This document shows, one piece after another, positions 32,618 through 44,012 of a stretch of DNA of 45,911 nt; position 1 is the stretch's first letter; each line of letters opens with the position of its first letter. The position numbers and the translations under genes were made by a program. The stretch spans positions 372,001 through 417,911 of the forward strand of contig JAPEUD010000014.1 of assembly GCA_026026165.1 (NCBI GenBank), written 5' to 3'. Origin of the DNA: Sarea resinae (lineage: Eukaryota). The notes under the pieces are model-generated. The model was not told the DNA's origin. It saw only the letters and a program-made list of their open reading frames with translations, and searched no databases.

Positions 32618-35175
32618 TCAAATCAATCTCTTCAGTGCCTCCACGGCCGCCTCTAAAACGCCCGGATTCTTCTCCCGCATGAGCACGGCTTTCAGAACCT
32701 CGACGCCGCCCTCCTGCTTCACTTTCTCGGTGCCCTGTCGCCCCGCCTCGCCCAACGCACACACAATGTTCTGCACGCACACGACGCCGCGATGCACAAG
32801 GCTTTCGTCATCATGTTCCTCGCAGAGACCCAAGAGGATCTTTACGCCGCGGTCGCGCGCCACGACCGCCTTGACCGCCTCATCCCACTCCGTTAGCATG
32901 GCAAGCGCACCGCCAGCTGCACGGCGCGTAGCCTCGTCTTCGGCATCCGCTAGAGCCAGAAGAATATGGAGTCTGTTGTTTGCGGCGGGGGAACCATCGG
33001 CAAATTTGGCGGTGGTTTCCGCCAAAGCCATGAGGTTGCAGATGAGCTCTACGGCGGCGCGTTGAAGGAGTGGGTTTGAGTGCAGGAGAAGTGATTCTGT
33101 GACGGGCTTAAAGGAGAGTTGGAGGATTAGGTGTCGGGTCGGATCGTCTGTGGAGGCGAGATTGGTGAGGGCTAGGAGGGACTCGAATGTGGGAAGAAGA
33201 TCGCGGGGGCCATTGTCGTCAAAGATACCATCGTCGTCGGAAGAAGGAAGGAGGAAGACGAGCGGACGAATGGCGGACGTGATGGGGAGGGCGGATGAGC
33301 CGAAAATATGAGAAGGGTTGACGGATATGAGTATTCGGGCTAGGGTGTGAGCGGCTGTGCGGCGCGAGACTATATCTGTTGCGGAGGCGGTGGTGTCGGG
33401 AATGGCGGAGTAGGCCTGGAGGATGAGCTTGACCGCCCCCTGTTGAGCCAGAGGACCACGGTTCTTCGAGTCTCTGGAAAGTGAGAGCAGTATAGTGAGA
33501 ATAAGGGAGAGCGCTGTTGGGGAAACCTTTCTGCTGATGGTAAGAAGAAGAGGGACGAGACCTGCATCGAGAACGGCTTTGCAGCGAACTGTCACGGCAG
33601 GATCTTTATTGAGGGGATCCGGCTCGAGATTGACTTTAGATGTGTTCGCGTAGGCTTTAAGTTGGGACAGCCGCTTCTGCTCCTCAGAGAGGTTGGGGAG
33701 GTATGAGGTTATGTTGACGAATATGTTGAGACCGCCGAAGATGATGCTGGAATTTGGGGGGGTATGCTCAAGGGTAGAAATTAAACTCTTGAGAAATGGC
33801 TTGTCTTTCGCAAGTCTCTCTTTTACTGTGGGCTGTAAAGACGTAAATGCAAGGCCTTCTATCGAGCTCTGCTTGTCGTTCACGCTTTCTTTGACCATCA
33901 TCTTTTGGAACATGTCTACCAGTGCATTGACACTTTTGGCTTCTTCCTGCACTCGCTGGTCTTTTCCGGTGCTATTCTCTCCACTGGGGCTCCTAATCTT
34001 AGCCAGTATGAGCGCAGCCATCCCTGGGCTCGGATCATTTCCGTCTTCCAGGATATCCTCCAGCCATTCGGAACAGTACTTCGATATTGCCTCGCGACAT
34101 GCTCGATCGATACAAGCAGCACTCAAAAGTTCCAGGGCAGCATGCTCCGCCTTTGAGCTTTTTAGCTTTTTGTTGACCGTGGACTCCAGCGACGGAACGA
34201 AGCCTTCTGTGAGGAAAAGGGAAGAGGCCATCGATGGTACAATAGGAAAGACGGCTGCCGCAACCGAGAGCGCCGTGATTAATTGATCGTTCGTATGCTT
34301 GGCGATCCGAGAAGTGACGAACTTGGTCAGGAGCGCATGGCCAGCATCCCCTGAGACCTCGAGATACTTTGCCGTAGCAAGAGTGGCCTGGCTTCGTACT
34401 TCTTGACTCCTTCGATTATCCAGTGAAGTCAGAATAGGGTCTAGCGTGTCTTCGTCGATCAGATATTTCAGCTTCTCGGCATCTGCTGCCAGAAGACGTG
34501 CGATTCCCCTCAAAGCTCGACCGGGGTGATCCTGCCCAGCTTCCATGAGCTTAGCAAGGAGTAGCTGAAAAACGTCATGTTCCATACGGTCCCTTGTTTC
34601 TTGTGAAGCCCAGGCCATGGTATCGAGAAGCATCAAAACAAGACCGCCAATGGCTGCATCGCCCTTCTCCCAAAGGCTCTCGAAGACTTGCGGCTGAGAT
34701 TCGTCGATCTGAGTCGCCAGGTATGCTCTTGCCCCTAAGCTTTGACGCAGAATACCACCGACCAATTCATCAGCAGTTGTCTCATCTGCTTCCACTGGCC
34801 GCTCCAGTAGAATCTTTAGACATTGTTCTCCCACGTCGTGTGATATTTGCCCGTTTGACCGTTCCACGAGCCGAAGAGCTTCCTTGCCGGCCGCTGCGTC
34901 CTTCTGCAGCACGAATCTGCGACATAGCTTTGCTAGAGGATCAGCAGCCTCTTCCTGCTGTATCTTTGCGAAGGCCGCCTTGACTTCTTTATTCTCGGGC
35001 GAGATGGACGCGGCCTCACGTAGCAACCGGGCACCTTCCTATCCGACACGAGGTTAGTGATTTGCACATCGATCATGAGCGTCGAGGCCCTAACCTCAAG
35101 TCGATCACGGGAGACTGATTCGAGTGCCCTTTGGGCCAGCTCTTGCGCTCTGGTATCATCCCCGGAGCTGGACAT
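32618..35175 (-). CDS. CRO1: UCS-domain myosin chaperone (Cro1/She4/Rng3/UNC-45 family), ~833 aa
   Basis: Exon 1 35175-35095, intron 35094-35039 (GTTAGG..CTAAC..TAG), exon 2 35038-32618. ARM-type motifs ELLSAACID, IEGLAFTSL, QLKAYAN, RGPLAQQGAVK, LARILISVNP, FESLLALTNLAS, RAAVELICNL, RRAAGGALAMLT, HRGVVC are typical of the UCS domain. Confidence 0.93.
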
Positions 35176-35666
35176 CTTACCGAGCTCGTGGGGGAATTTA
35201 TTTTGATGCTCGTAGGAAGCCCGAGTCAGAGAGCAGATGAGGTGCAATGGAGGGGCAATGGAGGGGCAATGGGGAGGCAATCACGGGCGAGGGCACGAGC
35301 TTTTGTATTGCTTATTTCTCATTGTGCAGCCAGGCAGCTCAGGTAAGGTATGATGATTGCATTGACATTGGATGTATCACATACTCTTCCTCCGAGGAGC
35401 TTTCGCTGGAAGTCCTTGTATCTGTTGTGGCTTATCGATAGAAAGTGACATCCCAGCCGAGTCACATGCACAGGCGTCGGCTTGCGACCATCATCGAGAT
35501 CGAGAGCGACGGAGTAGAACACCAGAACACCAGAACACCAGAGAACCAAATCATCGCCACCTCATATCGCACCACCTCTTCCAGCGAAAAGGGCCATCTC
35601 GAGACTGTCCGGCATGTTCGGGACGACCCCAATCATCGTGAGAAGCGCATCTTGGGCGAGGCCATC

Positions 35667-37041
35667 ATGAACGCCGTAGACGGCTCCGAACATTATGAAC
35701 GGGAATCAAACGGTAGCACATCCATCTGTTCAACATGTCTGCTCACCTACTGACTCTTCCCCTCAGAACCGCCTCCATCGCTCCTTACCGTCATCCTCGA
35801 CACCAATCCGCACGCCTGGTCCCTGCTCTCCTCCACCCTGCCGCTCTCCAAAGCCATTGCCAACATCCTCGTCTTCATCAACGCTCATCTGGCCTTCAAC
35901 TACGCCAACAAGGTCGCCGTCATAGCCAGCCACTCCCAACGCGCCCAATTCCTCTACCCTTCCCCGCCGTCCGCCTCCACATCTCTCGATCACCATGATG
36001 CCCCCCAACTACCCGCATCCGCTACGGGCCAAGAAGACACCGAGATGGCCGACGCACCTCCGAAACCGAAACTGAAACTCACCCTCAACGGCCGGAAACC
36101 TACGCCTTCCTCCGCCTCTCCAGCAGCTGAAGCCGGCCAGGCCCGCACAACAGACGACGCAAACAAATACCTGCCATTCCGCCTCGTCGAAGAAGAAGTC
36201 ATGTCGAACCTGCGTGCCCTCATCGCCTCCACCACGGCCTCGGATATCTCCACCACGAATAGCACGCAGATGGCGGGCGCGCTGACCCTGGCCCTCAGCT
36301 ATACCAACAAGCAAGCACTGGCCTACACGGAGAGCAATGGCGGCAGCGCCGGCGCCACGGGCGACCGAGGCGGCAACGACGGCCGCGAGCCGGAGAAGGC
36401 GAAACAGCTCCAAAGCCGCATCCTCGTCCTCAGCGTCTCGGGCGACCTGGCATTCCAGTACATACCGGTTATGAATTGCATCTTCGCCGCTCAAAGACAG
36501 GTATGCCTTACTCCCTCCCCCTTGCCCGCCCCCACCCTTGCTCCTCTGGCCTCTCGTGATCCCACACAAGCGCAGCATCTAACCAAGTTCTCCGACCCAG
36601 CGCATCCCCATCGACATTCTCAAAATCGCCGGCGACACGGTATTCCTGCAGCAAGCCTCGGACGCCACACGAGGCATCTACCTACCGCTGGACCCGCGCC
36701 AAGGCCTGCTGCAATACCTGATGATGGCGTACCTGCCGTCGCCACTCACGCGCCAGCACCTGATCCCGCCGACGCAGGTCAACGTCGACTTCCGCGCCGC
36801 GTGTTTCTGCCACAAGCGCGTCGTCGACGTCGGCTACGTCTGCAGCATCTGCCTGAGCATCTTCTGCCAACCCCCTGCCGCCGGCGAGTGCTTGACCTGC
36901 GGCACCCTGCTGGGCGTCGCTGACTATGGCCGCCGAGCTGCTGTTGTTGCCAGGAAGAAGAAGAAGAAGAGGAGACTTGATGGGGCCGGCGGCACGGGCG
37001 GCACGCCGACGCCGACGCCCGGAGGCACACCACTTCCGTGA
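35667..37041 (+). CDS. TFB4: TFIIH core subunit Tfb4 (p34/GTF2H3), ~406 aa
   Basis: Exons 35667-35712, 35767-36500, 36601-37041 (1221 nt). SLLTVILDTNPHAW, VFINAHLAFN, MAGALTLALSY, QYIPVMNCIFAAQ, FLQQASDATRGIY, and C-terminal Zn motif VDFRAACFCH...GYVCSICLSIFC...CLTCG. Confidence 0.96.
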
Positions 37042-37586
37042 AATCTTGATAGAATCGTCGCGGGTTCCGGAGTACAGGCATTTTCTTCTTCTCCACATTC
37101 AAGCGGGCGGGCTCAGGTAGAAAAGGCGCGCATTTTTCTATTATTTCCACTGTTGTTCATATCCTACCAACTAGTCGGAAAGCTAGATCTAAATCTCCAG
37201 CCACATTCAGCATCATAGAGACTCATTTTCAAACTTCAATTCAGTTCGCTTCTCGTTCCAGCCTCTACGTATAGCAACGTATTATGATCAGAGCACTACA
37301 TCACAGTCGATATCAACCAAATTGAAGGAAGCTTCAAGATGGAAAAGCACTCAGATAGAGATATATAACACATCGTATTCCAGACCACCACCACCACCAC
37401 CACCTCGTCCCGTCCTAACTTGGGACACAGCCAAAATCAGACCCACCGACCTCTCAGAGCCATACTTCTCCAACATTTCTAGCTCCTATTCCTAGTCCCA
37501 GCGCCACATTTCCAAGCCATGTCCTTAGATGCTCCTCCTCATCCCCATCGCTCCCCGCCTCTCTCTCTCTCTCTCATCAAAGCCAC

Positions 37587-37646
37587 CTATACACGCAGTT
37601 AGCCGTCTTTCCCAACTGACTCAAAACATAGGCAGGGAAGACTTAT
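37587..37646 (-). other. Terminal 60-nt intron of pre-TER with non-canonical 5' splice site AUAAGU (spliceosomal 3'-end cleavage signal)
   Basis: Minus strand reads ...GAGAAUUUUUUUU|AUAAGUcuucccugcc...acgGCUAACugcguguaUAG. 5'SS at 37646-37641, branch point GCUAAC at 37603-37598, 3'SS UAG ending at 37587. Confidence 0.88.
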
Positions 37647-37656
37647 AAAAAAAATT
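37647..37656 (-). other. Sm/Lsm binding site (AAUUUUUUUU) at the predicted mature 3' end of TER
   Basis: A + U8 run directly abutting the AUAAGU splice donor, the arrangement known for fungal telomerase RNAs. Confidence 0.85.
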
Positions 37657-39806
37657 CTCGAGCCATCCCCTCTCGAAGAGAGAGGACAGCTGACGGCCTC
37701 CCCGCCATCCCGTCTTACATCGCCCCGACCCCTCCCACCACAGGAACCCGCCGTTCTCTCTCTCCCGGTCGAAAAACAGAAGTACCCCGCACCATTTGCC
37801 CCACCGCGTAAAACACCAACGAATTCCAGAAAACACACATGGCAAGCTCGACTCGGGGCGCTTTCACCTTATCGAAACTGTACCACACGAGGAGAGAAGG
37901 ACAGACAAGCGCAAAGCTTTGAGCCTCACTCGAGAGAGGTCCCGCCTTCCACCCTCGTGCCGCCAGCGATAAGGGAACCCCGAAGGTCTTGGTGCAGACC
38001 AGAGGTATGTGTATGAGGTTTTCGTGCTTGTGCTTTTTGGGGAAGTACGGTGAGGGTCGTGGTTGCGGTAGTGAGGGGAGAGAGAGAGAAAGACGGATCC
38101 CCACGAGCTATCCCCGTCGTCAATCCTACTTCTGACATACCTGACCTTCGAAAACCCGCTCGGTCCAGTCCAAACGGTCATCCATATAGTCAACTTTGCT
38201 CTGCCAGGTCGAGCGCGATTTTCAAGCTTCTCTCAAGATGACCGCGCTCTCGAACGGTCGGACTTCCAAACCCTGGTCAAACGCCTTTTTCAAGGAGCTT
38301 TGCGGGGAAAGAACATCTCTCTATTTGTGGTGCAGTACTCTCAGAGACAAGTTTTATGTTTCCTCCCTCGCCTTTCACACGTCCGCACTTGACTCGCTGT
38401 TACGCAAAGCAATGGGACGGCTACTTGGCGAGAGGGCATTGAAAAGCGAACAAAAGACATCCTCAAAAACCGCTTTCGTCTCCCCGTATGAAGGGGGAGG
38501 ATGATGTCCAGCCTGCTGCTCCGAAGAGAGCAAGAGGACAGTGAATGTTGGGGCTCACCGTCGACCCGCGTGCTGAACACGCGAGGAGATGATTGACGCG
38601 GCTGGTCGAAACCTCGTCTCCTTGCAAGAGACGACTACAACTGTGGCTGGAGCCGCATCGTAGGTTTTCTGAGCTGCAGGCTGGGTAGAAAAAGTGGGGT
38701 GGAGAGCAGAGTATTCAAGCAGCCTGGAAAGATGCTTGAAGTGGTAGGGGAGACATACGGGACGTCTTCTCTTTCGCCGCCATGATGCTCTTTGAAGGTT
38801 TTCGATGTGAATAGTGTTGTCCCTTCCACGACCCAAGACCATACAGGTGTTTGATAAAGGGTCGATCGCTTGCATCTTCCTTCTCTCTTCTATCGCCTCA
38901 AAGCCTGCAATGATCAAGAACAACCAGCCCTCTGTCCTGTCAAGATTCAGACGTCCGAAGCAGACGCGTAGCCATGTTTTACAACTCACCCACCAGGGCA
39001 GCGATGCGAGTGTAAAATGATGCAATCAAATGCAGTTCTCTTTTTGTAAGGTCAAGCATCTCGCTACATGTCTAGAAAGAAGCTGCCCAGCCAAGCCTGA
39101 TCCCTGATGGGACCGTGAAGGCCATCTCGGAGGAGGCACGGAGCAGCTTTTCCAGACACGATTCCGACGATTGAATGCTATAGACCATTGCCCCTCAGGG
39201 CGAGATACATGCGTGATGCATTCTTTGGTAGGCAAGCACCACTAATGTGGAATTCGACGTGCTCATGTCTTCGTCTGAAACAGGAAGAGAAGCTTGCAGT
39301 CTCTCACAACGCAGAACCTCGAAAATGATAGAAAAAGAGAGGTCAGACTGTCAAGCACCTTATATCAATACCGATTGGCCCATTTAACGGGTGTCGAAAG
39401 AGCAATGTGTATTCGCCTTCAGAGCTCCGTTGCAGCAGAAAGAATGTGAAGAACCCAAAGACAATCCCAATAATGGGTGCCTGATATCTCCCATCCACTC
39501 TCTCCCGAAGATTTCCACAACGCCACGCATCAGAAAGACGATCTCAAAAGTGACCAGAGTATATGTTCGGCTAGAGGGAATCGACGCGCGCTCTCACAGA
39601 GAGGCTTACCAGACTAGACGCATGAAACACCTCATATTCAAAGGTCCAACAGGACTCCGAACGTCAGACCCTCTTTTCATCCCCCCAGAGAACACGGAAC
39701 TCAGCCTTGCGGCGAGGAAACGACGATCACCAGAGAGCTTAATAGGAAAGATGACAACTATGGACCGCAAAACTGCTTTCCAAAGGAAAGACAACCCAAC
39801 GAGTAC

Positions 39807-39815
39807 TTAGGGTTA
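39807..39815 (-). other. Telomerase RNA template 5'-UAACCCUAA-3' (1.5 copies of TTAGGG complement)
   Basis: Plus strand TTAGGGTTA at 39807-39815, flanked by non-telomeric bases (C and A). It lies one nucleotide 3' of the 3' strand of a strong helix. Confidence 0.88.
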
Positions 39816-40253
39816 AGCTCCGGAACCCATCCTCCCCATACCGCCATTCAATCTTTCGATTGTGACACGCCCGCGGGTGCGCTGGAACTCATTGAGACCA
39901 TGCTATGAGGCTCGAGTAGCAGCTCCCGCCGTACCATGCGCAGGCGGTGATGGGGGGCTGTTAAACATTCCTCGCGCAAGGCTGGAAGATGGGAGCCGGA
40001 AAACTGTGTGGAAAGTGCGCTGCTTTGTGATTACTCGAGAACGAGCGAGAGAATGAGATGGAAGCCGAAGGTTCATTGAGAGCGCGTCTTGAGATGGCGT
40101 GGAACGCGTTCACTGGCGGAGTGAAAGCTGTACTGGATGTCATGTGTAGACTGGAAGTAGAGCGGTCGAAAGATAGATTATCAGAGGGCATGATGCTCAG
40201 AGGATTGACGAAGATGAGGATAGTCGTTGGTGAGAAGGATATGGACGGTGTAT

Positions 40254-40510
40254 GAAGAGAGAAGAGGAAGAAGCGGAAGAAAGAGAGGAAAGTAAACACG
40301 GACAGCTCGAGTGACCGGCTCGAGTGACCGATACGCAGGCGCGTCGCTGACTAAGCAAATTCACCACGCGCTTTCATGTGATCTATCATTTTGCACTTTA
40401 CCGGCCAGGATGACACAACACCAAAGATTCACCCAATCTATCAAGGACTCGGTGCTGTGAAGCATCTAGAATCCCAAAAGCTATATGACAAGTCCGTGGA
40501 GGTCCAAGCC
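40254..40510. promoter_or_regulatory. Short bidirectional promoter region between TER (-) and RTP1 (+)
   Basis: Minus-strand pyrimidine tract 40291-40254 just upstream of the inferred TER 5' end. GTAAACA (forkhead-type) at 40292-40298, perfect 13-bp tandem duplication GCTCGAGTGACCG at 40305-40330, CGCG cores near 40340 and 40367. Confidence 0.55.
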
Positions 40511-43500
40511 ATGCCCCTCAGTGCGGTCGAGGCAGCTTTTGCGAATGCGAAAAGCTTCCTAGCTCCAGTATTAAATCGAGGTATCTGAGATATTGCATGA
40601 ATCGTCAGGCTGTTGATTTGGTTGATAGCTAAGCTAACGAATACCTCAGCGTCGATCGAGAGAGCGCGCTCCAAGTCAATCATCGAATTACTTTCTACTA
40701 ATGCCCAGGTTCATCATGGGGCCGAGTCAAAAGGTCACGTGCTTGAAAAGGCTATCAGCTTGATTCAGAGCATTCACGATGCTTTGAAAGCTGATGCCCA
40801 GGCTGAGAAAATTTTTGAATATGATCCACAGAGCCGCCGAATCGTGTATGCTCTTCTGGACCTAATATCATTGGAGGGTATCTATCCTTCCTTATCTTCG
40901 GGTGTTGGTATACCAATCGAACGTCGAGTCAAGTCTGTATTACTCGCTGGAGTAGTCGCCAAACCAACGACATCAGAATCAGCAGACCGGCATGATCAGG
41001 ATCTGTCGTTACTGAAAAATATCATTGATGCTTCCTCGAATTTCACGGCAGAACAGGGCAAAGGTATCGAGCCAATCATTCGTGATAGGATCCTCGTGGA
41101 CATTATCTGCGGGTCTGCCGAGCTCGCGTTCGGCCCTTTCTCGGACAGCAGCAACAAGGCAAAGTATGCAGCTACGTTCGAGAAACTGTTGGATGAGTAT
41201 GTCTGTCCTTTAATTATAAATCCCATGTATTTTAGAGCAAATCCAAGACTCCAACATCGTCTTTCATGCCTTGAGATTGGCTGAAACATATCATAGTTCA
41301 CCTACGTCTACTCTTCTCCCTATCTTGACCTCCCTTCTAACGCCGACTACGCCGACATGGCTACGCCCCCATTTCTCAACTCCACTCTCTTTGGTGCCGC
41401 TCCGGTCACATGGCGTGCGTCAGACAATAGAATTCATAGCTTCCACCGCCCGAGGTCCACCTCCATTCCAGAACGATAACGTTAATCCTCCATCAGCAAC
41501 AACCTCTACTGTATCACAGGGTCCCTCTTTGCCCATCGAAGCTTTGACACAGGCTTCAAAATTGCTTGCTTCTGTGCCCAGCGCCTTGACGCCTGATCAG
41601 TATTTCTCGCGGATCGCGCCTCAGCTTCTTGATTTACTAGATAGCGAAGCTGGCCCTGGAATGAGCAAAGCAGCAAGCTTTATTATTGGTGGAGGCATAC
41701 TGAATAGAAGGGCGTATGGAGCCCCTGGGACCATTGGATGGCGGCTCTTTGCCCAGCCAATATTGGCGAAGATCGACCCTGGATTGGACATTCAGGCCTC
41801 CATCCCTAATCAACCGGGCCCCGGTATCCACGAGTTTGATACTGTGCTAGTATCTGAGAGTGATCTCAATTTGGCCTTGACAAGGCTCGCTACTCTTATA
41901 ACATCTCACCCCAACCCTGCGCTTGCCAAAAGGCTTTTATCACGGCTGATGTTGCCACTTTGGTCTTTACGTTGCTTTTCCCGAAAGATGGGGAACTCGA
42001 CCTGGTGCGAGCGAGCTTCAAGTCTCTTAGAGACTTACTTCAAGGTTTCCGCCGATGCAGAGCAATTAGGTAAATTTGCAAGACAACTGCTCTGGGATGG
42101 GAGGCCTTCGTGGGAATATGCGTCTACTAAAGGGGGAGGAGTTGAAATTAGACGAACGTCTGATAAGACCACAGCGCCAAAAAATATGGTTGAATATGTT
42201 GAGAGCATTGACGACCGAGTGGACGAGTTCCTCAGACTTACTCAGTCTGGTGCCGTGGACGACGAACGACTTGGCGCCTTCTTCCTGGGTATCACTCGAC
42301 GCTGGCTTCTAGGCATGGAAGAGACGTCACCGTCCCAGCACGTCCTAGAGCCGGCATCTCAAAATTCTACGCAAGACCCAGCACAGATGCTGGTCGATGC
42401 CAAGATCGTCCAAAAAATGCTGGAACAGCAAAAAGAGAAACTCGCAAATAATCCTACACAAATCTTCGAACTCGTAAAGCAGCTCCTGAGTACCTTTGTC
42501 GAAAATCAGAACGCGCGATTTCAACGGAGGAGCAACCTTCAAAACCCGTCACTGTCTAGCCTAGGCAACATCGCCCGCGAAGCTACCGAGGAAGATCCAG
42601 GGGGCGCTGGTGAAGCGGGTTCTGAAGACGAGCCGACAGATATGGCCTCCATCGCTCTCAGTCTCCTCAGCACGATCCTATCTTCTCCTGATCTATCTCT
42701 TACGGAAGAAGACACACGGGTCCTATCCAGCATAGAGCCCTCCCTATCGTATCTCTCCTCTTCAAACAACTCCATCCCTTCATCTCTCTCCATGGCTGCC
42801 ATGAACCTGTCATCGCTCCTGACCCTCCAGGCTTCTATCCCCTCTACAACCTCGTCTTCCCTCAAAGCCTCCGACATCGAAGACCGCAAGACACACCAGC
42901 TCGCTCTGACCTATCTCACCGATGCCCTGCCTCCTGTCCGAGCACAAGGCCTGTCTCTCCTCACCGCTCTTATCTCGTCCCGCTCACCTGTCCTCGATGT
43001 CCCAGCCACCACGATCCTACTTCTCAGCCTGCTCCAAGACGATGACGAGTTCATCTACCTCAACGCCGTGAAAGCTCTCGGCGAGCTCAGCCAGAAACAT
43101 TCTCGGACCATCGTCAAGAATCTGGTAAGCCGGTATGTCGACCGTGAGGAGGAACTTGGACTTGATCAGCGCCTGAGACTCGGTGAGGCTCTTCTAAAGA
43201 CGGCAGAAAGTCTCGGCGAGGCCCTGGTCGGCGACACCGCCACCACGCTTGCAGAAGGCATGATCGCCGTTTCAGGGCGGCGCGGCACGCGGCCCAAAGC
43301 CGCCGCAGAACACGCCCGGCGCATCAACCTGCAAGAACTCCGCAACAAAGAAGCTGCCGATGCGTGGGGCGGAGAATTGCCGGACCTCCCTGCGATGAAC
43401 TCGTCCTCGGACTTGCAAGACGGCGCCCTCGACCGCGAAGAGAATGAAGCCTTATCCGCCATCCTCGCGGGCTGGGAAGGCAACCGCGCCACAGAAGACG

Positions 43501-44012
43501 TCCGGATCCGCACGTCGGCGCTCTCGGTCCTCGGCGTCGCCCTCGAAACCAATATCGCCGGCATCGGCGCCGTCCTCACGTCCACAGCTATCGACCTCGC
43601 CATCTCGATCCTGACGCTTGAGAATACGGGCGAGGAGAAGGCCATCCTCCGCCGAGCCGCGGTGCTGCTTTTCATGAGTCTGCTCAAGGCGCTGGATCGA
43701 GCGCGCGAGGAGGGCCGGAAGCTGGGGTTCGGACTTGCTGGAGAGAGCTTAGGCGATGTCATCAGAGTGCTCGAGTATGTGCGGGCTACTGATGGCGATT
43801 GGATCGTTAAGGGACATGCGGGGGCTGTGGTGGAGAGTCTGGAGGCTTGGAAGGAGAAAAGTTTGGTGTTTGGGATGGCGGAAGGGATGGAGAGGGAGAG
43901 AGGCGGGCATGGTATGGCTCCGCCTATGCTGGGGGAGAGACTGGCGGGTTTGAGAGTGGATCCTACGGGGCAGGGACGCGGCTCCAGGCCACGCATTGAA
44001 GAGATTGAATGA
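40511..44012 (+). CDS. RTP1: Rtp1/Tango6-family HEAT/ARM protein (RNA polymerase II assembly/nuclear import factor), ~1110 aa
   Basis: Exons 40511-40580, 40650-41196, 41297-44012 (3333 nt). LLDLISLEGIYPSL, YFSRIAPQLLDLL, and C-terminal motifs LTDALPPVRAQGL..LLSLLQDDDEFIYLNAVKAL, RLRLGEAL, DVRIRTSALSVLG, LRRAAV, DGDWIVKGHA are characteristic of the RTP1 C1/C2 regions. Confidence 0.88.

What the first reader, a model, noticed from the sequence alone, without database searches (positions are those of the whole stretch)
38097..40240. ~180-nt imperfect long-range duplex joining the 5' end to the region just 3' of the pseudoknot
Seen: 40059-40240 and 38097-38268 are colinear imperfect inverted repeats about 1.8 kb apart. 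Paired blocks in the RNA: CUUCCA/UGGAAG, UCGG/CCGA, GAAC/GUUC, CGCGCUCUC/GAGAGCGCG, UCUCAAGA/UCUUGAGA, GCCAG/CUGGC, CAGCUUU/AAAGUUG, CAUCCA/UGGAUG, UCCAGUCU/GGACUGGA, CCGCUC/GAGCGG, CUGAUA/UGUCAG, UCGUCAAUCCU/AGGAUUGACGA, CUAUCCUC/GGGGAUAG. Several mismatches are G-U wobbles on the minus strand, which points to RNA-level selection and gives the strand. Inference: an extended core-enclosing helix that brings template and pseudoknot together and places the 5' end at or above ~40240.
Basis: partly seen in the sequence, partly recalled or inferred. Interest (0 to 1): 0.75.

Follow-up and report, generated by a model that had tools for sequence, protein, structure and literature searches.

The report
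Long stem in fungal telomerase RNA
This is the telomerase RNA gene of a filamentous fungus: its first ~170 bases pair with a stretch 1.8 kb further on to form a long stem that wraps the enzyme's working core, a feature that related fungi seem to share but that the standard model of this RNA leaves blank.

Summary
The duplex is real. It lies in a single-copy, minus-strand Pezizomycotina telomerase RNA gene (template, pseudoknot, P6/P6.1, Sm site, AUAAGU). The genome has TERT and TTAGGG telomeres.

Two corrections. G-U wobbles do not give the strand here: the antisense folds as well. The duplex is also not the core-enclosing helix itself; that is a separate ~10-bp helix (40023-40011/38332-38342), and the duplex lies just outside it.

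Two other fungal telomerase RNAs (Eurotiales-like, Sordariales-like) have unalignable arms that still pair only with their own partner: z -9.9, -6.5, -3.4 for 3 cognate pairs, -1.4 to +0.4 for 6 swaps. Both arms are single-copy, so a transposon is unlikely. Best reading: the core-proximal helix of a yeast-like terminal arm, serving folding or scaffolding, not catalysis. Rfam RF02462 leaves both arms unpaired. The predicted RNA (at least 2,581 nt) exceeds the 2,425-nt upper size cited for fungi. No expression data were available.

The parts
40059..40227 (-). 5' arm of the long interrupted duplex (pyrimidine-rich, C 0.36, U 0.27)
   Evidence: MFE and partition function; single copy in genome
38103..38268 (-). 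3' arm of the long duplex (G 0.35), between CEH1 and the three-way junction
   Evidence: single copy
40011..40023 (-). Core-enclosing helix 1 (CEH1), 5' strand
   Evidence: same position as Rfam model 210-221 in L012 and as 'Core-enclosing I' of Kuprys Fig. S1; pair probability 0.65-0.72
38332..38342 (-). CEH1, 3' strand, just after the pseudoknot
39819..40000 (-). Template-boundary helix with a ~180-nt arm, ending 3 nt before the template
   Evidence: fold -80.6 kcal/mol, z -2.2, 5 of 200 shuffles as good
39807..39815 (-). Template UAACCCUAA (would make TTAGGG)
   Evidence: identical to the N. crassa template (PMC3592445); TTAGGG arrays at contig starts and elsewhere
39795..39800 (-). Candidate core-enclosing helix 2, 5' strand (partner 38552-38547)
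   Evidence: by inspection only, same position as Rfam CEH2; not tested
38346..38543 (-). Pre-pseudoknot hairpins and pseudoknot (U-rich CS3 38471-38460; A-rich CS4 ~38369-38346)
   Evidence: Rfam RF02462 1192-1381, 29.4 bits, E 2.4e-6, just under the gathering score of 30
37885..37960 (-). Three-way junction / CR4-5: P5, P6 and P6.1 (4-bp stem, loop UUUGC fits NUNGN; 37919-37907)
   Evidence: RF02462 1648-1690, 25.3 bits, E 4.5e-5; fold z -3.0, 2 of 200
37647..37656 (-). Sm-like U tract; predicted mature 3' end near 37647
   Evidence: matches the Aspergillus arrangement (PMC3603654)
37641..37646 (-). Non-canonical 5' splice site AUAAGU for spliceosomal 3'-end cleavage
   Evidence: PMC4299874 passages
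37587..37603 (-). Branch point GCUAACU (37603-37597) and candidate 3' splice site UAG (37589-37587)
   Evidence: PMC3603654
40228..40252 (-). Possible terminal helix with 37716-37740 (unproven)
   Evidence: probability 0.8-1.0 in the ensemble, but not above shuffles (z -1.5, 14 of 200) and not specific in swaps
40340..40382 (-). Promoter-like motifs resembling the Aspergillus upstream element (40382-40362; second motif 40348-40340); imply a 5' end near 40300-40320
   Evidence: resemblance by eye to Kuprys Fig. S1; inference
40511..44012 (+). RTP1/TANGO6-like gene, head-to-head with the RNA gene; same arrangement in L007 and L012
   Evidence: Pfam PF10363/PF10304; tblastn; first ATG
36045..36923 (+). 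Tfb4 (last large exon), convergent neighbour downstream of the RNA gene
   Evidence: Pfam PF03850, E 3e-24

Best explanation
The locus is the telomerase RNA (TER) gene of a Pezizomycotina fungus, read on the minus strand from about 40300 to about 37647. Its 5' ~170 nt pair with the ~165 nt that follow the pseudoknot. This gives a ~125-bp interrupted helix directly outside the short core-enclosing helix CEH1. It is the core-proximal part of a yeast-like 'terminal arm', or a greatly lengthened vertebrate-like P1. Most likely mechanism: once transcription passes the pseudoknot, the two arms zip up and clamp the ~1.8-kb template / central arm / pseudoknot domain as one folding unit. That would stabilise the marginal CEH1, keep the C/U-rich 5' end from mispairing with the core, and space the core from the 3' three-way junction and Sm site. 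Pairing is kept across lineages while sequence is not, so the role is architectural (folding, stability, scaffold) rather than catalytic. SHOWN here: complementarity, its position relative to TER motifs, single copy, and cognate-specific pairing in two other lineages. INFERRED: expression, ends, folding in vivo and function.
For: TER identity: two RF02462 hits in the right order and strand, the only 2 found in the genome (a floor); template, P6.1 loop, Sm tract, AUAAGU and branch point; TERT RNA-binding domain at E 2e-43; TTAGGG arrays; RTP1 head-to-head in 3 of 3 TERs. Duplex. Comparative: the metagenome scan gave 8 loci = 2 distinct TERs (L006=L007; L008~L012) plus 4 without template or P6. 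blastn between the three TERs hit only the pseudoknot, P6/P6.1 and template regions, never the arms. Cognate arm pairs gave z -9.9, -6.5, -3.4; 6 of 6 swapped pairs gave z -1.4 to +0.4 (60 shuffles each). With 210-nt windows: z -7.9 (0 of 300), -8.3 (0 of 300), -3.1 (1 of 300). The cognate partner ranked 1st of 172, 153 and 154 windows. MFE duplexes have 125, 138 and 98 bp. By eye in Kuprys Fig. S1, the outermost 4-bp helix pairs in 10 of 10 Aspergilli, with an A-U pair in 6 and G-C at the same place in 4. The Rfam consensus sequence itself has complementary 8- and 7-nt blocks in its unpaired 5' and post-pseudoknot parts. [quoted passage not shown]
Against: No RNA data: expression, ends and strand are unshown. 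The antisense duplex is as stable in the window. The unconstrained fold misfolds the core (6 of 9 template nt mostly paired), so fold probabilities are not to be trusted everywhere. L012 is only modestly significant (z -3.1 to -3.4; at least one shuffle beat it in each). Only 2 independent homologues, none close enough for column-wise covariation. The Aspergillus A-U/G-C switch is read by eye and may be one evolutionary event. Both RF02462 hits are below the gathering score. The N. crassa core without nt 1-224 is fully active in vitro, so function would have to lie in vivo.
Confidence: 0.75

Rival explanations
1. The helix is real in the RNA, but its main job is to present a specific protein-binding element (an internal loop or bulge), like the S. 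pombe T1 region, for biogenesis or recruitment factors; the clamp effect is secondary.
For: S. pombe T1 is essential, must be helical, is sensitive to two point mutations, and is proposed as a protein site (PMC11870620 passages). Aspergilli keep a short conserved G/A-rich block inside the 3' arm (by eye).
Against: No shared arm sequence between the three lineages (blastn). Arm length varies from 98 to 138 bp.
Confidence: 0.12
2. Paired but nearly neutral: long fungal TERs drift into quasi-helical arms because the 5' part is pyrimidine-rich and the post-pseudoknot part purine-rich; the stem has no selected role.
For: The compositional bias is present in all 3 TERs. The region is apparently dispensable in vitro in N. 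crassa. S. pombe T2 and T3 can be deleted.
Against: Composition-keeping shuffles and cross-species swaps of similar composition do not pair. Cognate complementarity survives complete sequence turnover in 3 lineages.
Confidence: 0.08
3. Relic of a DNA-level inverted duplication, or of a foldback/MITE-type element, that happens to bracket the TER core.
For: The window's duplex is strand-symmetric (GU not above A.C), as expected of a decaying DNA inverted repeat. About 120 exact complements.
Against: Both arms and the 1.8-kb interior have 1 match each, to themselves, in the 25.5-Mb genome (that search can miss common words). No target-site duplication except (TC)n microsatellite. No Pfam family in the 3 internal ORFs scanned. 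The same duplex with different sequence sits at the same place in two other classes. An ancient duplication later co-opted cannot be excluded.
Confidence: 0.05

Closest known systems
Pezizomycotina telomerase RNA (N. crassa TER, Aspergillus TERs; Rfam RF02462 Telomerase_Asco)
   Same: Order and form of CEH1, TBE, template (identical 9-mer to N. crassa), long central region, pseudoknot, P5/P6/P6.1, Sm tract, AUAAGU and branch point; an RTP1-like neighbour.
   Different: Rfam leaves model positions 1-209 and about 1398-1655 unpaired, and Qi et al. left regions beyond the two cores undetermined. Here they form a 125-bp duplex. Predicted length is at least 2,581 nt against 2,035-2,425 nt for mapped ones. 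Kuprys Fig. 7 may draw this helix; the figure could not be seen.
Terminal arm of S. pombe TER1 (P1-P3, region T1); by recall also S. cerevisiae TLC1
   Same: The 5' end pairs with sequence 3' of the pseudoknot, outside the CEH; the arm leads on to the three-way junction.
   Different: Here the core-proximal helix alone uses ~170 nt per strand. Closure of the arm by a 5'/3' terminal helix is not shown. No conserved-sequence blocks were demonstrated.
Vertebrate TR P1 helix
   Same: 5' end paired with the strand just 3' of the pseudoknot, with CR4/5 further 3'.
   Different: Vertebrate P1 is the template boundary element (PMC4993307 passages) and is short (recalled). Here a separate template-adjacent TBE and CEH1 exist, and the duplex is far longer.

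Membership tests
Pezizomycotina telomerase RNA | Template of ~1.5 telomere repeats matching the genome's telomeres | tested here: met
   UAACCCUAA at 39815-39807; TTAGGG arrays, 214 forward and 206 reverse matches against 1 and 0 for the control
Pezizomycotina telomerase RNA | Template-adjacent boundary helix | tested here: met
   40000-39984 with 39838-39819; z -2.2, 5 of 200; computational only
Pezizomycotina telomerase RNA | Pseudoknot with U-rich and A-rich strands | tested here: met
   RF02462 1192-1381, E 2.4e-6; base triples not tested
Pezizomycotina telomerase RNA | Rfam gathering score (30 bits) | tested here: not met
   29.4 and 25.3 bits as two local hits. The Eurotiales-like L007 also gives only a local hit (50.7 bits) while the Sordariales-like L012 gives 676.8 over the full model, so the model looks lineage-biased
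Pezizomycotina telomerase RNA | Three-way junction with 4-bp P6.1 and NUNGN loop | tested here: met
   consensus from PMC3592445
Pezizomycotina telomerase RNA | [quoted passage not shown] | tested here: met
   37656-37597; PMC3603654
Pezizomycotina telomerase RNA | Single copy; TERT in the genome | tested here: met
   (these searches give lower bounds)
Pezizomycotina telomerase RNA | Expressed, TERT-bound, templates telomere synthesis | not testable with these tools
   no RNA run was available to lay
Core-enclosing helix (strict sense) | Directly closes the TBE-template-pseudoknot core | tested here: not met
   CEH1 is the separate helix 40023-40011/38332-38342; the duplex starts 36 and 64 nt further out
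Yeast-type terminal arm | 5' segment pairs with post-pseudoknot segment outside the CEH | tested here: met
Yeast-type terminal arm | Arm closed by a 5'-end/3'-end helix that encloses the three-way junction | tested here: inconclusive
   predicted in the window and L012, not in L007; z -1.5, -0.1 and -1.2 for the 3 cognate pairs
Yeast-type terminal arm | Helix needed in vivo | not testable with these tools
   needs mutants
TIR transposon / MITE | Multi-copy family | tested here: not met
   1 match each (self) for both arms and the interior
TIR transposon / MITE | Target-site duplication; transposase | tested here: not met
   only (TC)n repeats among the top 15 candidates of 5-10 nt; 2-4-nt TSDs not testable this way; 0 Pfam families in 3 of 3 internal ORFs scanned

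The most novel reading that the evidence does not exclude
Filamentous ascomycete telomerase RNAs share a long (100-140 bp), sequence-free but pairing-conserved 5'/post-pseudoknot helix that current models leave blank. It is essential in vivo (as S. pombe T1 is) and could be a Pezizomycotina-specific protein platform. This TER, at about 2.6-2.7 kb, would also be the longest fungal telomerase RNA described.
Probability: 0.3. Interest if true: 0.6.

Novelty: new member of a known kind. Interest (0 to 1): 0.42.

Why it matters
It extends the TER family to a lineage where Rfam misses it at its curated threshold, and it supplies structure for roughly 350 nt that the Rfam model and the main comparative paper leave unassigned. 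If general, it unifies the overall architecture of filamentous-fungal TERs with the yeast terminal arm and vertebrate P1. It also gives a direct test (unpair and re-pair the arms in A. nidulans or N. crassa) of what the bulk of these very large RNAs is for, and a structural constraint for predicting 5' ends. A telomerase specialist would find it plausible rather than startling.

Tried and rejected
Strand from G-U wobbles: rejected for this locus. It does favour the sense strand in L007 (17 vs 5 GU; -164.8 vs -141.7) and weakly in L012 (-112.7 vs -105.9).
Rfam at gathering threshold: 0 hits in the window.
Ungapped repeat finder: the duplex is not among the 25 longest of 592 inverted pairs.
Pseudoknot pattern: 0 hits in viral contigs and genome contigs. 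Of 8 metagenome loci, L009, L010, L011 and L013 were dropped (no template, no P6; L009 had no Rfam hit), and L006 and L008 were treated as duplicates of L007 and L012.
Sequencing runs: no RNA holder listed. Laying contigs of X1-X4 at 80% gave no variant in the arms; only X1, a possible source of this DNA, covers them, and the others touch mostly template, pseudoknot end and P6.
Terminal 5'/3' helix: not supported by shuffles or swaps.
Idea that helices are capped at 11 bp to avoid Dicer: the maximum is 11 in 3 of 3, but crude null probabilities are 0.10, 0.18 and 0.45; not evidence.
Column-wise covariation statistics were not run because the arms do not align.
Literature searches that showed no description of this helix or a larger fungal TER among the listed titles and abstracts. 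Several returned mostly unrelated papers, and only 12-25 hits were listed per search.
Earlier findings of this scan: none.

Full report
1. Observation. The two stretches are complementary as described. The duplex runs 40227-40059 against 38103-38268, with 125 bp (66 GC, 52 AU, 7 GU) in 24 helices of at most 11 bp. Mean pair probability is 0.96, with 111 of 125 pairs above 0.9. Its energy is -159.3 kcal/mol against -87.9 +/- 6.3 for dinucleotide shuffles, 0 of 200 as good. The partner is the best of 172 windows across 34001-43000. By a simple alignment score one unrelated C/T-rich window outscored the partner among 704, so the thermodynamic and swap tests carry the weight. The wobble argument fails. 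Neutral alignments give 11 G-U vs 12 A.C, or 7-8 vs 9-10, and the plus strand folds as well (-167.1, z -11.2).

2. What the locus is. The window is fungal: Tfb4, UNC-45, RTP1, VPS11 and other eukaryotic families. A protein 100% identical to the window's UNC-45 ORF is labelled Sarea resinae by its source; the next hit is Xylona at 59%. Between Tfb4 and RTP1 the minus strand carries, in order: promoter-like motifs (40382-40340); the 5' arm; CEH1 5' strand (40023-40011); a boundary helix (40000-39819; z -2.2); the template UAACCCUAA (39815-39807), identical to that of N. crassa; about 1.25 kb of central region; the pseudoknot (RF02462, E 2.4e-6); CEH1 3' strand (38342-38332); the 3' arm; the three-way junction with a canonical P6.1 (E 4.5e-5); and a U tract, AUAAGU and branch point (37656-37597). 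That 3' signature is the one described for Aspergillus TERs and shown to drive spliceosomal cleavage. The genome has one TERT RNA-binding-domain match and TTAGGG arrays, and the Rfam search finds only these 2 matches (a floor). Both Rfam hits fall just short of the gathering score (29.4 and 25.3 vs 30).

3. Not a transposon. Each arm and the interior match only themselves in 25.5 Mb (these searches can miss common words). Direct repeats at the outer ends are only (TC)n. The 3 internal ORFs scanned have no Pfam family.

4. Relatives. A pseudoknot pattern found 8 metagenome loci: two distinct TERs, each present twice, and 4 loci without template or P6, which were dropped. L007's neighbouring gene has its best named hits in Eurotiales; L012's in Sordariales. 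Both TERs lie head-to-head with RTP1, as in the window. Their arms do not align with the window's or with each other's: blastn hits only template, pseudoknot and P6. Yet each 5' region pairs with its own post-pseudoknot region: z -9.9, -6.5 and -3.4, against -1.4 to +0.4 for all 6 swaps. A repeat with 210-nt windows and 300 shuffles gave 0, 0 and 1 shuffles as good. The cognate partner ranked first in 3 of 3 loci. Duplex sizes are 125, 138 and 98 bp. L012 is the weakest case.

Reading Kuprys Fig. S1 by eye, the Aspergillus 5' region also has blocks complementary to the post-pseudoknot region. The outermost 4-bp helix pairs in 10 of 10 species, GCAG/CUGC-type in 6 and GCGG/CCGC-type in 4; this may be a single event. 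By my count it starts about 15 nt inside the mapped A. oryzae 5' end. The Rfam consensus leaves positions 1-209 and about 1398-1655 unpaired, although its own consensus letters there hold complementary 8- and 7-nt blocks.

5. The helix that closes the core is CEH1, located from the Rfam alignment of L012 and Kuprys' label; it has probability 0.65-0.72 in the window. The long duplex starts 36 nt and 64 nt outside it. In N. crassa a 295-nt core built from nt 225-1515, plus P6/6.1, is fully active in vitro. I infer, without having that sequence, that nt 1-224 hold the equivalent 5' arm. So the duplex is probably not needed for catalysis. The nearest described element is the core-proximal terminal arm of S. 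pombe TER1, whose T1 section must be helical for telomere maintenance.

6. Mechanism (0.75). A co-transcriptionally closed clamp isolates the 1.8-kb core domain, backs up the short CEH1, sequesters the pyrimidine-rich 5' end, and spaces the core from the three-way junction. Complementarity, position and cross-lineage specificity are shown; folding in the cell and function are inferred. Rivals are a protein-binding platform (0.12), near-neutral pairing (0.08) and an inverted-duplication relic (0.05). A caution: the unconstrained ensemble pairs 6 of 9 template bases, so it is wrong in the core. A predicted terminal helix (40252-40228 with 37716-37740) did not beat shuffles (14 of 200).

7. Size. 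From the top of the duplex to the end of the U tract is 2,581 nt. The promoter-like motifs suggest about 2,650-2,680 nt. M. graminicola TER (2,425 nt) was the largest in 2012, and 900-2,425 nt is still the fungal range in a 2020 paper. Searches showed no larger one but were weak. The ends are unmapped.

8. Novelty. The gene is a new member of a known family. The helix is of a known kind (terminal arm / P1) but is absent from the Rfam structure and was left undetermined by Qi et al.. The Kuprys text does not mention it (0 hits for 'core-enclosing', 'long-range'), but its Fig. 7 is a whole-RNA structure prediction that I could not see and may show it. Searches listed nothing describing it.

Papers seen: PMC3592445, parts 3-4 of 7 of the text; its two listed supplement files (under 1 kB each) were not read, and its real supplement may bear on novelty. 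PMC3603654, parts 2-4 of 6, passages, and Fig. S1 text in full. PMC11870620, passages and section 6 (supplements not seen). PMC4299874, PMC4993307, PMC8480181 and PMC11964246, passages only. Statements on TLC1 and on the length of vertebrate P1 are recalled.

Verdict: observation confirmed, interpretation partly supported, interest 0.42.

Noticed in passing
window 37647-40227 (to ~40320): Predicted TER length of at least 2,581 nt, likely about 2,650-2,680 nt, above the 2,425-nt upper range cited for fungi.
   Followed up: partly
window 40511-44012; L007 266-2226; L012 3-2232: An RTP1/TANGO6-like gene is head-to-head with TER in three classes, probably sharing a promoter; a useful anchor for finding TERs that Rfam misses.
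   Followed up: partly
window 40382-40340: Two motifs resembling the conserved Aspergillus upstream element; L007 has a similar element about 55 nt above its duplex.
   Followed up: partly
window 40286-40228 with 37656-37740: Possible helix between the C/U-rich 5' end and the G/A-rich region before the Sm site; high ensemble probability for 40252-40228 but not above shuffles.
   Followed up: yes
window 39518-39410 with 38685-38813: The MFE predicts a further long helix in the central region between template and pseudoknot, like the yeast central/Est1 arm; not tested. The weak ROSE match at 38716-38813 on the + strand (E 0.06) is probably chance.
   Followed up: no
L007 about 2930-2950: The template region reads CUAAACCCUAAU, with an extra A as in A. 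niger; its telomere repeat may differ from TTAGGG.
   Followed up: no
window, L007, L012 duplexes: The longest uninterrupted helix is 11 bp in all three; crude null P 0.10, 0.18, 0.45.
   Followed up: yes
window 37834-38000: A 167-nt contig in run X2 (snow metagenome) is identical to this stretch.
   Followed up: no
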